DNA from: a virus
Lineage: Duplodnaviria; Heunggongvirae; Uroviricota; Caudoviricetes
Reading direction: 5' to 3' (one strand)
IMG/VR virus record: IMGVR_UViG_2602041549_000007
Span: 1 to 23,428 of that record
Length of the DNA: 23,428 nucleotides
The position numbers were made by a program, and so were the translations under genes. This document shows, piece after piece, positions 7,991-10,598 of this stretch (positions within the stretch are counted from its first letter, which is position 1; every line of letters starts with the position of its first letter). The notes under the pieces were generated by a model. It saw only the letters and a list, made by a program, of their open reading frames with translations. It ran no database searches and was not told where the DNA came from.

Positions 7991-8062
7991 GGGTCCTTCC
8001 GGTGTAGTGACCTGCCACGGGGCGGGAGCGTCGCGGGAAAAGGCTGGTTTTTGCATTTTCAT
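7991..8062 (+). other. cos site A (lambda-like cosQ-cosN), satellite copy 1
   Basis: GGGTCCTTCCGGTGTAGTGACCTGCCACG GGGCGGGAGCGT CGCGGG matches lambda ...GGGTCCTTTCCGGTGATCCGACAGGTTACG GGGCGGCGACCT CGCGGG (lambda sequence recalled from memory); predicted 12-nt cohesive end 8020-8031. Confidence 0.75.
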
Positions 8063-8113
8063 GGCGGCGGCAGCATGTGTGATAATTTATTGATAATTAA
8101 AAATTATTTCTGC

Positions 8114-8241
8114 TTTCACCTGTACACTATTTTTTTCTCCCTGTCATTAGACCAGTTTGCAATTAATTGAAATATATAAATAAATTTGTTTTTCACCTGC
8201 CAGATGGAGTTGCCTGTGTAAAACGTGTTCAGATGGCGGGA
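8114..8241 (+). promoter_or_regulatory. cosB-like region with a relic of the helper terS 5' end
   Basis: 8190-8227 matches window 6-43 at 34/38 positions and includes a truncated ATG GAG TTG CCT GTG TAA; TTTCACCTG repeated at 8114-8122 and 8191-8199 (also at window 7-15). Confidence 0.55.
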
Positions 8242-8374
8242 TATTTATGCCGGATTCTCTCCGGCATTTTTTGTGTCTGAATCTTATTAATCTATTTTTA
8301 TGATAGAAATGTGTTTATCTACCACATTTATCGATCAATAATGTGCACAGTTTAGTCAGTAAGAGGAAGTTACT

Positions 8375-8581
8375 GTGAGTTGTATTAATGACCTGAACAC
8401 GGGCGATATCAGGGGTGGTTCCGTTCATCTGGATGCGCAGACCGTTATGCGCCTTAAGCAGTACAGGATCGACCATATAAATCATCATCCTGACAAACCA
8501 TTACCAGGTGTGGCGCAGATTGTCAGACATGCCGTAAACACCTGGCTTAATCAGAATGGTTTTGCATCGGTGGGGGAATAA
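8375..8581 (+). CDS. Hypothetical protein (68 aa), translationally coupled to the satellite capsid gene
   Basis: GTG start with AAGAGGAAG RBS; its TAA overlaps the ATG of the downstream gene (TAATG). Confidence 0.5.
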   Translation: MSCINDLNTGDIRGGSVHLDAQTVMRLKQYRIDHINHHPDKPLPGVAQIVRHAVNTWLNQNGFASVGE

Positions 8582-10494
8582 TGAATCGCTGGTACACCAT
8601 TAAGGCGGCGGATGTGCGTGGAGCGGCGGATATATCTATCTATGAGGAGATTGGCGGCTTCGGTGTTACTGCAAAGCAGTTCGCGGAAGACCTGAAAGCC
8701 CTTGGCGATGTTTCACATATCAATCTGAGGATCCATTCACCTGGTGGTGATGTGTTTGAAGGCATCGCCATCTATAACCTGCTACGGAATCATCCGGCAG
8801 ACATTACGGTTTATATCGATGGTGTTGCGGCTTCAATGGCTTCGGTGGTCGCAATGGCTGGCGATCGTGTAGTGATGCCGGAGAACGGCATGATGATGAT
8901 CCATAAACCGTGGGGGATCTCTGGCGGAAATGCTGGCGATATGCGTGATTATGCTGATTTGCTGGATAAGGTGGAAACCGTGTTAATCCCTGCTTATGCC
9001 AGAAAAACGGGCAAATCAGCACAGGAAATTACCGCCATGCTGGAGGATGAAACCTGGATGGATGGTAAAGAATGCCTTAAGCACGGTTTTGCTGATGAAT
9101 TGTTGCCATCCGTCAGAGCAATGGCGCGAATTGAATCGAAACGCACAGGAGATTTTTTACATATGCCGGAAACCATTAAAGGAATGATTACACCGCCACA
9201 GGGAGCGGCAAATATTGCTGGTAATGAACAGAAGCGCATCAATGGAATAAGTGAAGTGTTTAGCCTGTTCGGCAGTCGTTACGATGGGATCAAAATGGCG
9301 TGTCTGGAAGATGCATCATGTACACCGGAAATGGCCCGTGAAAAGCTGTTGAACGAGCTGGGGCGCGAGTCCACGCCATCCAATAAAAATACCCCGCCTC
9401 ATATCTATGCCGGAAACGGAAACATAACAGGTGATGCAATTCGTCAGGGGCTTTACTCCCGTCTTGGGTATGAACGCCCTGAACGAGGCAACCCTTACGC
9501 GATGATGAGCCTTTTTGAAATGGCCCAGGCATCACTAACTGATCGTGGTATCAGTGTTGGCGGTTTTTTAAATCGCTCGCAGGTCGTTAATGCAGCTTTC
9601 ACACACAGCAGCAGCGATTTTTCTCATATTCTGGCTGGTGGCGCTGAAAAATCAGTACTGAAAGGCTGGCAGGACAGCGGCGAAACGTTCCAGAAATGGA
9701 CGCGTACCGGTTCGCTTTCAAACTTTCATGAAGCAAAGCGCGTTGGTCTGAATGGTTTTTCAAAGCTGGATAAAGTACCGGAAGGCGCGGAATATAAATA
9801 CATCACCACCAGCGATAAAGGTGTACCTATTGCGCTGGCCACGTACGGGAATATTTTTTCCGTTACCCGTCAGGCCATTATCAACGATGACCTGACCCAG
9901 TTAACTACAATCCCCATGGCGATGGGACGCGCAGCTGCCAGAACAGTTGGCAATCTGGTTTATCTCCTGTTAACCAGCAACGGCAAGTTTACGGATGGTA
10001 AAGCGTTATTCCATGCCGATCATAAAAATCTTATTGCGAAGGATATGGACATGGAGGGGCTTAACGAAGCCCGTAAGCTGATGCGCCTCCAGGAAGACGC
10101 TAACGGCGATTCGCTGAATATTACCCCCGCATTTGTCCTGGTCCCCGCCGCGCTGGAGTCTGCCGCACATCGCGCCATTCTGTCATCGTCATCACTCTTT
10201 CCGGTTGATGGCGTGAGCACTATCAATCAGAACCCCGGCATCATTAACGTGGTGAAAGATATGGCGGAGGTAATCGTTGAGCCACGTCTTGATAAAGCCA
10301 ATAACAAGGAGTGGTATGTGGCAGCGGCGAAGGGTATGGACACGATAGAGGTCGCTTATCTTGATGGTATTGATACGCCATATCTTGAGGAGCAGGAGGG
10401 ATTTACTGTTGATGGCGTCGCCTGGAAGGTGCGCATAGATGCAGGTGTCGCGGCCCTCGACTATTGCGGATTACTGAAATCGAGTGGAGCATGA
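8581..10494 (+). CDS. Prohead protease (ClpP-like) - major capsid protein fusion, satellite copy
   Basis: 637 aa; N-terminal ClpP/S14-like protease segment (GGDVFEGIAIYN..VDGVAASMASVVAMAGD..MIHKPW) and C-terminal HK97-fold/Mu gpT-like capsid region; roughly 65-70% identical by eye to the helper gene 14739-16697. Confidence 0.85.
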   Translation: MNRWYTIKAADVRGAADISIYEEIGGFGVTAKQFAEDLKALGDVSHINLRIHSPGGDVFEGIAIYNLLRNHPADITVYIDGVAASMASVVAMAGDRVVMPENGMMMIHKPWGISGGNAGDMRDYADLLDKVETVLIPAYARKTGKSAQEITAMLEDETWMDGKECLKHGFADELLPSVRAMARIESKRTGDFLHMPETIKGMITPPQGAANIAGNEQKRINGISEVFSLFGSRYDGIKMACLEDASCTPEMAREKLLNELGRESTPSNKNTPPHIYAGNGNITGDAIRQGLYSRLGYERPERGNPYAMMSLFEMAQASLTDRGISVGGFLNRSQVVNAAFTHSSSDFSHILAGGAEKSVLKGWQDSGETFQKWTRTGSLSNFHEAKRVGLNGFSKLDKVPEGAEYKYITTSDKGVPIALATYGNIFSVTRQAIINDDLTQLTTIPMAMGRAAARTVGNLVYLLLTSNGKFTDGKALFHADHKNLIAKDMDMEGLNEARKLMRLQEDANGDSLNITPAFVLVPAALESAAHRAILSSSSLFPVDGVSTINQNPGIINVVKDMAEVIVEPRLDKANNKEWYVAAAKGMDTIEVAYLDGIDTPYLEEQEGFTVDGVAWKVRIDAGVAALDYCGLLKSSGA

Positions 10495-10501
10495 CAACAA
10501 G

Positions 10502-10524
10502 GGCGGCGATAGCCGCCTTTTTTT
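10502..10524 (+). terminator. Rho-independent terminator after the satellite capsid gene
   Basis: GGCGGC-gata-GCCGCC hairpin plus TTTTTTT. Confidence 0.7.
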
Positions 10525-10526
10525 GC

Positions 10527-10598
10527 GGGTCCTCCCGGTGTAGTGACCTGCCACGGGGCGGGAGCGGCGCGGAAAAAGGCTAGTTTTTGCATTTTCAT
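10527..10598 (+). other. cos site B (lambda-like cosQ-cosN), satellite copy 2
   Basis: 72 bp, 4 mismatches to copy A; predicted cohesive end GGGCGGGAGCGG at 10556-10567; lies ~195 bp upstream of the terS2 start, the same spacing as cosN to Nu1 in lambda. Confidence 0.75.

What the first reader, a model, noticed from the sequence alone, without database searches (positions are those of the whole stretch)
7991..10598. Two lambda-type cos sites in direct orientation within one satellite
Two 72-bp blocks (7991-8062 and 10527-10598, 4 mismatches between them) each read as cosQ plus cosN, with predicted 12-nt cohesive ends GGGCGGGAGCGT and GGGCGGGAGCGG. Each sits just after an intrinsic terminator. 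Copy A is followed by a helper-like cosB and a terS-start relic, then the 68-aa and capsid genes; copy B is followed ~195 bp later by the satellite's own terS2, the lambda cosN-to-Nu1 spacing. In an excised circle the B-to-A interval in the packaging direction is ~7.8 kb and excludes the capsid gene, while A-to-B is ~2.5 kb. The two overhangs differ at position 12, so ends cut at different copies would not anneal perfectly. This suggests dual terminase specificity (helper TerS at A, satellite TerS2 at B) or a decoy cos.
Basis: partly seen in the sequence, partly recalled or inferred. Interest (0 to 1): 0.85.

Follow-up and report, generated by a model that had tools for sequence, protein, structure and literature searches.

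The report
Two packaging sites in a phage satellite
A 10.3-kb phage satellite sitting inside its helper prophage's terminase gene carries two real lambda-type DNA-packaging (cos) sites, one copied from the helper and one paired with the satellite's own small-terminase gene; two cos sites are already documented in E. coli satellites of this kind, so this is a new arrangement of a known feature.

Summary
Blocks 7991-8062 and 10527-10598 differ at 4 of 72 positions, lie in direct orientation, and each has a lambda-like cosQ (GGGTCCT) and cosN. Deposited genomes of related phages (cdtI, Tritos) begin at the predicted cut, GGGCGGGAGCGT.

The element is a 10,341-bp Gram-negative PICI. It is inserted in the helper prophage's terL, a "helper-embedded satellite", which is a published class. 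The copies share cosQ, cosN and the first 43 bp, then diverge where lambda-type phages place the first TerS-binding site.

Copy A continues for about 200 bp as a near copy of the helper's cosB, up to a 5-codon terS stub. Copy B continues into a different spacer and the satellite's own DUF1441 TerS homologue.

In 36 related satellite contigs, cos B plus TerS2 is present in all, though its cosN is mutated in one. The cos A cassette and the capsid module are each optional.

Two cos sites in an E. coli PICI (EcCICFT073 cos1/cos2) were shown functional in 2018-2019. There they are inverted and flank rppA.

This case is therefore a new variant of a known kind. Dual TerS specificity is the best reading, and it is untested. 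Interest is moderate to low.

The parts
1548..1557 (+). attL core (TTTCTGGATG) of the satellite inside helper terL
   Evidence: BLAST of the window against an uninterrupted prophage (L004) shows overlapping breakpoints. Joining the flanks restores a 699-aa TerL that matches the intact one at the junction.
7964..7990 (+). Intrinsic-terminator-like hairpin plus T-run after ssb, directly before cos A
   Evidence: RNAfold gives -16.0 kcal/mol for 7955-7992.
7982..8266 (+). cos A cassette, a 285-bp block that is present or absent as a unit among relatives
   Evidence: Alignment with L146 shows a clean indel between two CCGGC(A)TTTTTT hairpin ends.
7991..8062 (+). cos A core: cosQ-like GGGTCCT (7991-7997), cosN (8020-8031, GGGCGGGAGCGT), and shared spacer to +43
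   Evidence: Repeat D4, motif test and lambda alignment. The phage cdtI and Tritos records start at the base matching 8020.
8063..8221 (+). Helper-type cosB region and 5-codon terS relic (ATG 8204, stop 8219-8221). It contains two TTTTCACCTG-ended repeats 77 nt apart.
Evidence: 91.6% identical to L004 3001-3237 over 237 nt.
8247..8272 (+). Terminator-like hairpin closing the cos A cassette
   Evidence: Found by scan_promoters_terminators. RNAfold gives -12.8 kcal/mol.
8375..8581 (+). 68-aa ORF preceding the capsid gene
   Evidence: ORF list. There is no Pfam hit. It was found by tblastn, at 73-100% identity, in the relatives where the capsid module was found, except L166, L167 and L012.
8581..10494 (+). 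Satellite ClpP-like prohead protease / major capsid protein fusion (637 aa)
   Evidence: Pfam CLP_protease and Phage_capsid_4 hits. About 57% identical at protein level to helper-type prophage capsid fusions that are 99% identical to the window's.
10500..10526 (+). Terminator-like hairpin plus T-run after the capsid gene, directly before cos B
   Evidence: RNAfold gives -16.7 kcal/mol.
10527..10598 (+). cos B core: cosQ-like GGGTCCT (10527-10533), cosN (10556-10567, GGGCGGGAGCGG), and shared spacer to +43
   Evidence: A cos B is present in every satellite relative that carries TerS2; in L161 it is found only by eye because its cosN is mutated.
10599..10751 (+). cosB-like spacer specific to copy B
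   Evidence: The whole -37 to +200 region around cos B, which includes this spacer, is 77-78% identical to the matching region of 'type 2' prophages, whose TerS is 64-70% identical to TerS2.
10752..11237 (+). TerS2, the satellite's DUF1441 small-terminase homologue (161 aa)
   Evidence: Pfam DUF1441, E = 1.6e-35. In phages the same family sits between cos and gpA-type terL. The AF2 model has a winged-helix-like N-terminus.
11234..11521 (+). 95-aa terminal ORF conserved in this PICI family
   Evidence: 73% identical to the last ORF of EcCICFT073.
11889..11898 (+). attR core (TTCCTGGATG)
20..559 (+). Helper prophage TerS (DUF1441). The helper's own cos lies just upstream of the window.
   Evidence: Pfam hit. 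Window 1-43 matches the terS start of L004 and also the relic after cos A.

Best explanation
Both blocks are genuine lambda-type cos sites. They sit in a Gram-negative PICI-type satellite that is embedded in its helper prophage's terL.

The two copies share the part that the large terminase subunit uses: cosQ, cosN and the proximal spacer. They carry different small-subunit recognition arms.
- cos B, with its own cosB-like spacer, is the satellite's core packaging site. It is served by the satellite's TerS homologue TerS2, the gene 196 nt downstream.
- cos A is an optional 285-bp cassette that mimics the complete cos of the helper phage lineage. Unmodified helper terminase (helper TerS plus TerL) can therefore also start on satellite DNA.

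Packaging would run rightward from either site along a replicated concatemer. Lambda-like terminases cut the next cos only when the head is nearly full, so satellite DNA would be packaged as multimers, and either copy could serve as the terminating cut.

What is shown: the sequence anatomy, the homology to phage cos regions, the modular presence or absence of each part, and the co-variation of the two left halves.

What is inferred: that both sites are cut, which TerS acts at which site, and the packaging mode.
For: Identity as cos sites:
- The motif is unique to the two sites.
- The alignment to lambda shares the GGGTCC of cosQ, ACGGGGCGG and CGCGG.
- The same unit sits 196 nt upstream of terS in intact prophages.
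- The phage cdtI and Tritos records start exactly at GGGCGGGAGCGT.

Different recognition arms:
- A and B are near-identical to +43 and then diverge. That is the position proposed for R3 and R3-PICI (PMC9026076).
- A's arm is 86-92% identical to the helper cosB.
- The region around B, including its arm, is 77-78% identical to that of 'type 2' prophages whose TerS is the closest phage relative of TerS2.

Modularity (36 IMG/VR satellite contigs with TerS2 at 86% identity or more, plus three E. coli genome loci):
- 24 elements, counting the window, carry A plus B in direct orientation.
- L146, L155, L161 and L164 lack only the A cassette.
- L140 and L023 lack the capsid module and carry one A-left/B-right cos.
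- cos B plus TerS2 is present in all of them; in L161 its cosN is mutated.
- The full module occurs in 154 of 5,426 complete E. coli genomes.

Precedent:
- EcCICFT073 has two cos sites, both functional when cloned. cos1 is recognised through the satellite's own TerS-like factor Rpp.
- That PICI's DNA is packaged at phage size.

Ongoing interplay:
- The left halves of A and B co-vary within elements. They differ at 2.8 positions on average within an element and 9.0 between elements, and only 8 of 10,000 permutations reach this.
Against: - There are no experimental data for this element.
- cos A is dispensable in about a quarter of relatives.
- In EcCICFT073, deleting the second site raised transfer, so a second cos need not be beneficial.
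- TerS2 lacks the acidic C-terminal tail and the KAVVQVLETLPDILERDC motif that all phage DUF1441 proteins share. It may not bind helper TerL in the standard way.
- DUF1441 has no solved structure. The fold search gave no significant match to lambda TerS.
- In this window the integrase carries a nonsense codon, so this particular copy may be immobile.
Confidence: 0.6

Rival explanations
1. cos A is a passenger. It is a scrap of the helper's cos region picked up when late genes were captured by a satellite living 1.5 kb from the helper's cos. It is kept by drift or by repeated recombination with helpers and has no benefit, or a slight cost, for satellite transfer.
For: - The cassette is a clean indel, absent in L146, L155, L161 and L164.
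- Helper-embedded satellites are reported to capture the late genes nearest their insertion site (10.1101/2022.07.18.500453).
- Deleting cos2 in EcCICFT073 increased lambda-mediated transfer.
Against: - The cassette ends at the terS start and keeps the whole non-coding cos unit.
- It stays 86-92% identical to phage cos, while the neighbouring capsid gene is only about 57% identical to the helper's at protein level.
- cosQ and cosN match the motif in all 24 two-cos elements.
- The two-cos form outnumbers the capsid-less recombinant, 154 genomes against 1-3.
Confidence: 0.2
2. cos A is a decoy or interference device. A helper-type cos on a high-copy satellite replicon soaks up helper terminase, or causes unproductive cuts, lowering helper yield.
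For: - Copy A carries the helper's own recognition arm.
- PICIs are known to interfere with helper packaging.
Against: - Any terminase bound at cos A would package satellite DNA. That is mobilisation, not pure decoy action.
- Known E. coli PICI interference works through a protein, Rpp, and not through a DNA site.
- No feature here distinguishes a decoy from a working site.
Confidence: 0.07
3. The pair is a length-adjusting device. Two cut sites per unit give extra allowed chromosome lengths, for example 38.8, 43.9 and 49.2 kb besides 41.4 kb. They would also give a 12.9-kb A-to-B chromosome that could fill a small head built by the satellite's own capsid protein.
For: - Length arithmetic from the measured distances.
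- Helper-type genomes are 45-47 kb.
- The satellite encodes its own protease-capsid fusion.
Against: - A 4-mer of 41.4 kb already fits a 47-kb-class head with one cos.
- EcCICFT073 DNA is packaged at phage size, and its capsid gene is dispensable.
- There is no evidence here for small heads.
Confidence: 0.08
4. The blocks are not cos sites, but some other repeated regulatory or terminator-associated element.
For: Both follow terminators. The ungapped similarity to the lambda core alone is not outstanding.
Against: - The same unit sits at the canonical place upstream of terS in many prophages.
- It is single-copy in 79 of the 80 listed IMG/VR loci.
- Deposited phage genomes start at the predicted nick.
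- There is no Rfam match.
Confidence: 0.03

Closest known systems
EcCICFT073 cos1/cos2 (Gram-negative PICI; Fillol-Salom et al. 2018 ISME J, PMC6092414; 2019 Mol Cell, PMC6739421)
   Same: - It is the same satellite family. It shares the ssb, DUF4222 and primase neighbourhood, and its terminal ORF is 73% identical.
- It has two lambda-like cosQ-cosN units in one island.
- One unit lies directly upstream of the island's own TerS-derived packaging gene.
- A capsid gene is present in the late zone.
   Different: - In EcCICFT073 the two sites are inverted, about 750 bp apart, and flank rppA (L006 7559+ and 8309-). Here they are direct, 2,536 bp apart, and flank the capsid gene.
- The cosN there is lambda-identical (GGGCGGCGACCT). 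Here it is the cdtI-phage type.
- Neither EcCICFT073 site has a phage cosB. Here copy A has the helper's.
- The packaging gene there is Rpp. Here it is a full-length DUF1441 TerS homologue with no detectable similarity to RppA or RppC.
Helper-embedded satellites (Tommasini, Mageeney and Williams, bioRxiv 10.1101/2022.07.18.500453)
   Same: - The satellite is integrated in, and co-oriented with, a lambdoid late gene. The paper names sites A:Terminase_1:245 and A:Terminase_1:246.
[quoted passage not shown]
- The paper notes a 258-bp helper-like cos segment in its model element.
   Different: In the parts I read, the paper does not describe two direct cos sites or the TerS2-linked site.
SaPI packaging strategies (cos SaPIs such as SaPIbov5 carrying the helper cos plus a capsid homologue; pac SaPIs carrying their own TerS)
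   Same: Works like both at once: a helper-cos mimic next to a capsid-protein homologue, plus a satellite-encoded TerS with its own site. SaPIbov4 is also reported to have two putative cos sites.
   Different: These are unrelated sequences from Gram-positive hosts. The comparison with SaPIbov5 and pac SaPIs rests on statements in PMC6092414 and PMC6739421 and on my own knowledge. It was not tested here.
Lambda derivatives and cosmids with duplicated cos (classical lambda genetics; my own knowledge, not checked here)
   Same: Two direct cos sites on one replicon, where terminase can start or stop at either site depending on head filling.
   Different: Those are laboratory constructs with identical cosB arms. 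Here the arms differ and the arrangement is natural and widespread.

Membership tests
Lambda-type cos site | cosN: a site for 12-nt staggered nicks, related to GGGCGGCGACCT | tested here: met
   Copy A matches lambda at 8 of 12 positions and copy B at 7 of 12, with flanking ACG and CGCGG conserved. Copy A is 12/12 with the first 12 bases of the phage cdtI record.
Lambda-type cos site | cosQ (GGGTCCT) a fixed short distance upstream of cosN | tested here: met
   GGGTCCT lies at -29 to -23 in both copies. In lambda it lies one base further upstream.
Lambda-type cos site | cosB, a small-terminase binding region between cosN and terS, about 190 nt from terS | tested here: inconclusive
   The spacing is right: 196 nt for B, and 184 nt to the terS relic for A. 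A is homologous to the helper's region and B to that of type 2 phages. Binding sites for DUF1441 proteins are not defined. Only A shows an internal repeat.
Lambda-type cos site | Actually nicked by terminase, forming virion DNA ends | not testable with these tools
   The only indirect support is that deposited cdtI and Tritos genomes start at the predicted base. I could not confirm that those ends were mapped experimentally.
Gram-negative PICI / helper-embedded satellite | int plus alpA at the left end, genes unidirectional, primase/replicase plus ori, 10-20 kb, no full virion gene set | tested here: met
   The ORF map and Pfam hits give int, an AlpA-sized HTH, a Bro-N protein, a RepA-like AAA_25 protein, SSB, a single capsid fusion and TerS2. 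The size is 10,341 bp.
Gram-negative PICI / helper-embedded satellite | [quoted passage not shown] | tested here: met
   terL is split at a 10-bp core. Joining the flanks gives an intact 699-aa TerL.
Gram-negative PICI / helper-embedded satellite | Rpp protein redirecting helper TerS | tested here: not met
   TerS2 has no similarity to RppA (BLASTP E = 2.3) or to RppC in the PDB. The control, the EcCICFT073 gene, hits RppC at 5e-31. Fillol-Salom 2018 noted that some of the newly identified PICIs contain a terS homologue, so Rpp does not define every PICI.
Gram-negative PICI / helper-embedded satellite | Induction, replication and high-frequency transfer by a helper phage | not testable with these tools
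   No experiment was possible. In this window int carries W255stop.
Capsid-forming PICI (cf-PICI) | Complete own capsid and packaging module (terL, portal, head-tail connectors) | tested here: not met
   Only the protease-capsid fusion and TerS2 lie inside the att sites. terL, portal and gpW belong to the helper.
Phage small terminase (TerS) for TerS2 | N-terminal winged-helix DNA-binding domain, oligomerisation helices, C-terminal TerL-binding tail, gene between cos and terL | tested here: inconclusive
   - DUF1441 family membership is clear.
- Phage members sit between cos and gpA-type terL.
- The AF2 model (pLDDT 80) shows an H-E-H-H-E-E-H N-terminus and long helices.
- Foldseek finds no significant PDB match. 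The lambda TerS DNA-binding domain 6hn7_B scores E = 0.37 with TM 0.51 on the target.
- The satellite lineage lacks the family's acidic tail.

The most novel reading that the evidence does not exclude
Both copies are cut in vivo, so the 2.5-kb capsid module is in effect a cos-bounded cassette. Packaging that starts at B and ends at A, or the reverse, followed by cohesive-end joining, would delete or duplicate the module and would mix the left halves of the two sites. This would explain three findings: the A-left/B-right single-cos derivatives, the co-variation of the left halves, and the floating position-12 base.

In addition TerS2, which has lost the conserved acidic tail of phage DUF1441 proteins, would act as an Rpp-like hijacker that needs helper TerS to reach TerL, and not as a self-sufficient TerS.
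Probability: 0.15. Interest if true: 0.6.

Novelty: new variant of a known kind. Interest (0 to 1): 0.35.

Why it matters
[quoted passage not shown] This element gives a cleaner natural case than EcCICFT073. The two sites share the cutting core, and they differ exactly where TerS-type proteins are proposed to bind. One arm is the helper's, and the other is paired with a satellite TerS homologue. Relatives that lack one or the other module exist in nature.

That makes the question directly testable with plasmid-cos transfer assays and end mapping. It also suggests that some E. coli satellites combine two hijacking routes, helper-cos mimicry and their own TerS. It does not reveal a new kind of system.

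Tried and rejected
- Ungapped scan of a 41-nt lambda cos core over the window. The two sites score 24 and 22 of 41, no better than the best random places, so this test alone is not discriminating. The gapped alignment and the composite motif were used instead.
- Sequence search of TerS2 and the 95-aa ORF against the PDB. Only chance hits were returned.
- AF2 model of TerS2 plus Foldseek against the PDB. No match reached E <= 0.001.
- Rfam scan of the whole window. Nothing was found.
- Species-representative genome scan with TerS2. It returned only 5 loci. Four are prophages; the fifth, L011, has terL-C similarity next to the TerS relative but no cos match. They were useful for defining the 'type 2' phage arm, but not for a census.
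- Literature searches for 'two cos sites' plus satellite, and for DUF1441. These gave nothing beyond the PICI papers. I could not confirm that the cdtI ends were mapped experimentally.
- Idea that the second cos is needed to fit the head. Rejected as a necessity, because a 41.4-kb tetramer already fits.
- Idea that position 12 encodes an incompatibility between A and B. Rejected, because all four combinations occur and both bases occur in phage cos sites.
- Using conservation to locate TerS-binding sites in the arms. The type 1 arm is too uniformly conserved and the type 2 arm too variable to point to discrete sites.
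Full report
**1. Observation**

The window holds an 80-nt direct repeat, 7983-8062 and 10519-10598, at 93% identity. The composite motif GGGTCC-N20-30-ACGGGGCGG-N6-CGCGG occurs only at these two places and never in 100 shuffles.

Aligned to the real lambda cos, both copies share three elements:
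- the GGGTCC of cosQ (lambda reads GGGTCCT, as do both copies);
- the ACG|GGGCGG left side of cosN;
- the CGCGG that follows the 12-nt overhang.

An ungapped scan with the lambda core alone is not discriminating. The case therefore rests on the motif, on position, and on phage homologues.

The same unit lies 196 nt upstream of the DUF1441 gene that precedes gpA-type terL in uninterrupted prophages. The deposited genomes of phage cdtI (47,021 bp) and phage Tritos begin at the base that corresponds to window 8020, reading GGGCGGGAGCGT. Both copies follow a strong hairpin plus T-run.

**2. What the element is**

The window opens inside a lambdoid prophage. The layout is:
- TerS at 20-559;
- TerL ATPase domain at 568-1560;
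- an interruption, after which the prophage resumes with the TerL nuclease domain (11896-13008);
- gpW, portal, a ClpP-capsid fusion, tail genes and the tape measure.

BLAST against an uninterrupted relative places the break at a 10-bp core. Joining the flanks rebuilds a 699-aa TerL that is identical at the junction.

The 10,341-bp insert carries int, an AlpA-like HTH, a Bro-N protein, a RepA-like helicase, SSB, a 68-aa ORF, its own ClpP-capsid fusion, a second DUF1441 gene (TerS2) and a 95-aa ORF. All are co-oriented with the helper late genes.

This configuration is the published "helper-embedded satellite". Sites A:Terminase_1:245 and A:Terminase_1:246 are named in that paper (10.1101/2022.07.18.500453).

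The same late module also occurs in free-standing islands at cspD-clpS and next to a tRNA-Pro gene; a related island next to a tRNA-Ile gene (L013) keeps cos B, TerS2 and the 95-aa ORF. The ssb-to-95-aa-ORF stretch is present in 154 of 5,426 complete E. coli genomes.

The terminal ORF is 73% identical to the last ORF of EcCICFT073. The neighbouring genes are of the same types. This places the element in the EcCICFT073 PICI family.

**3. Anatomy of the two sites**

The copies are near-identical from the T-run to +43 after the first cosN base, and then diverge completely. Murialdo and Feiss place the first TerS or Rpp binding site (R3, R3-PICI) at bp 48-65 (PMC9026076). The split therefore falls where recognition by the small subunit is expected.

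After +43, copy A continues as a copy of the helper lineage's cos region. It is 91.6% identical over 237 nt to L004 and 91% identical to the first 208 nt of phage cdtI. It runs through the helper terS start codon and then stops after 5 codons. It contains two TTTTCACCTG-ended repeats 77 nt apart.

Copy B continues into a different spacer. The cos B region as a whole is 77-78% identical to the cos-terS region of a second group of prophages (L007-L010). Their TerS is 64-70% identical to TerS2, and their TerL ATPase domain is only 75% identical to the helper's. TerS2 is 32% identical to the helper TerS.

**4. Family census**

A tblastn-guided fetch from IMG/VR gave 36 satellite contigs with TerS2 at 86% identity or more; a further contig at 84% (L169) is a prophage. 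Together with three E. coli genome loci (L001, L005, L012) and the window they sort as follows.
- 24 elements have A plus B in direct orientation.
- L146, L155, L161 and L164 have the ssb terminator joined directly to the sequence after the second hairpin. The 285-bp cos A cassette (about 7982-8266) is therefore a clean indel bounded by CCGGC(A)TTTTTT.
- L145, L148, L151 and L144 have another upstream context and no cos A.
- L140 and L023 lack the capsid module altogether. They carry a single cos whose left flank is A-type and whose right side is B-type. This is the product expected either from recombination between the repeats or from B-to-A packaging followed by end joining.

That single-cos derivative is rare. 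It is found in 1-3 complete genomes, against 154 with the full module.

cos B plus TerS2 is present in every member, so it is the core of the module. A few copies are damaged: L012 B has a 2-bp deletion in cosN, and L161 B has a mutated cosN.

**5. Position 12 and co-variation**

In the IMG/VR and genome loci, counts at position 12 are as follows:

| Site | T | G | Other |
|---|---|---|---|
| Phage cos sites | 133 | 19 | 1 |
| Satellite cos B | 2 | 24 | 0 |
| Satellite cos A | 17 | 6 | 1 |

All four A/B combinations occur. L001 has the reverse of the window. The difference is therefore a tolerated polymorphism, not a designed barrier.

The variable cosQ-cosN spacer tends to be the same in A and B of one element, including rare variants. 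The mean difference is 2.8 within elements against 9.0 between elements, and only 8 of 10,000 permutations reach this. The right-hand markers stay specific to each copy.

This shows sequence exchange between the copies. It does not tell whether the route is gene conversion or cos cutting and rejoining. The permutation ignores shared ancestry.

**6. TerS2**

TerS2 belongs to DUF1441. In an alignment of 43 family members from many enterobacterial genera, phage proteins share KAVVQVLETLPDILERDC and an acidic C-terminal tail. The satellite lineage has EIVSEELEKLPSILARDV and a non-acidic tail.

The AF2 model (pLDDT 80) has a winged-helix-like N-terminus followed by long helices. Foldseek finds nothing significant. 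The lambda TerS DNA-binding domain and RppC appear only among weak hits.

By analogy with lambda Nu1, whose C-terminus binds gpA (stated in PMC9026076), TerS2 may interact with helper TerL differently or not at all. This is inference.

**7. Comparison with what is known**

Fillol-Salom et al. reported the following for EcCICFT073:
- it carries two cos sites with lambda-like cosQ and cosN and no phage cosB;
- both work when cloned;
- deleting cos1 lowers transfer, and deleting cos2 raises it;
- Rpp-TerS recognises the cosB of cos1.

In the CFT073 genome I find the two units at L006 7559 (+) and 8309 (-). They are inverted and flank a gene that matches RppC at E = 5e-31. Another island (L014) has an inverted pair with two different cosN types around a terS gene.

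The present arrangement differs in four ways:
- orientation is direct, not inverted;
- the pair flanks the capsid gene, not rppA;
- copy A carries a true helper cosB;
- a DUF1441 TerS homologue takes the place of Rpp.

It is a variant of a documented feature, not a new kind of system.

**8. Mechanism and its limits**

The best-supported reading is one cutting core with two recognition arms:
- B with TerS2 as the satellite's own entry point;
- A as an optional helper-mimic entry point.

Packaging would run rightward, and multimers would fill helper-sized heads, as reported for EcCICFT073. Allowed lengths near a 45-47-kb head are 38.8, 41.4, 43.9 and 49.2 kb. One cos would already allow 41.4 kb, so a second site is not required for fit.

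The alternatives are a passenger relic, a decoy, and a length or small-head device. All are listed with their tests, and none is excluded by sequence.

In this window int has a TGG-to-TGA change at codon 255. This copy, and the helper whose terL it splits, may therefore be locked in place.

**9. Verdict**

The finding is a new variant of a known kind, and interest is about 0.35.

Noticed in passing
window 2484-2486: The satellite integrase has an in-frame stop (TGG to TGA, W255*) relative to the intact 412-aa orthologue in E. coli 2A. This copy probably cannot excise on its own, which would leave the helper's terL permanently split.
   Followed up: yes
window 1548-1557 and 11889-11898: The satellite sits inside the helper terL at a 10-bp core, between ...ASFWM and EGPAAA.... 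Precise excision would rebuild a 699-aa TerL. This is the published helper-embedded-satellite configuration.
   Followed up: yes
window 10752-11237, alignment A1: The satellite TerS2 lineage has replaced a motif that is near-invariant across phage DUF1441 proteins (KAVVQVLETLPDILERDC becomes EIVSEELEKLPSILARDV). It has also lost their acidic C-terminal tail. This hints at an altered interaction with TerL or with helper TerS.
   Followed up: partly
L014 10706 (+) and 11692 (-): A related island at cspD-clpS carries an inverted pair of cos sites with two different cosN types, lambda-type GGGCGGCGACCT and GGGCGGGAGCAT. They flank a gene annotated as terminase small subunit.
   Followed up: partly
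L012 12214; L161 about 4230; L013 8315: Some relatives carry damaged or divergent second sites. L012 has a 2-bp deletion in cosN, L161 has a mutated cosN (AGGCGGGAGCGG preceded by GCG), and L013 has a TGGCGGCGGCAT variant after a pseudogenised capsid gene.
   Followed up: partly
window 8031 and 10567, and relatives: G at overhang position 12 is strongly enriched in satellite cos B (24 G to 2 T). Phage cos sites are mostly T (133 T to 19 G). The cause is unknown; it may be ancestry or selection.
   Followed up: partly
window 10600-10612; L006 7608-7625; L007-L010: A CAY-CAY-CAY-like run (CGTCATCATCATC, CGTCATCACCAC, ACACCACCACCAC) sits at about +45 to +65 in cos B, in type 2 phage cos sites, and in the rppA-proximal cos of EcCICFT073. 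That is the position proposed for R3-PICI.
   Followed up: no
window 7077-7289: Repeats of AAAAGTGGG(G/T)A-type units and an inverted repeat lie just downstream of the RepA-like gene. They are probably the satellite replication origin iterons.
   Followed up: no
window 9333-9419, versus helper capsid gene at about 15557-15643: An 87-nt patch of the satellite capsid gene is 94% identical to the helper-type capsid gene, inside genes that otherwise show repeat blocks at about 70% nucleotide identity. This may be a gene-conversion patch.
   Followed up: no
window 11234-11521: The 95-aa terminal ORF has no Pfam or PDB match. It is conserved at the right end of PICIs with different packaging genes, and is 73% identical to the last ORF of EcCICFT073.
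   Followed up: partly
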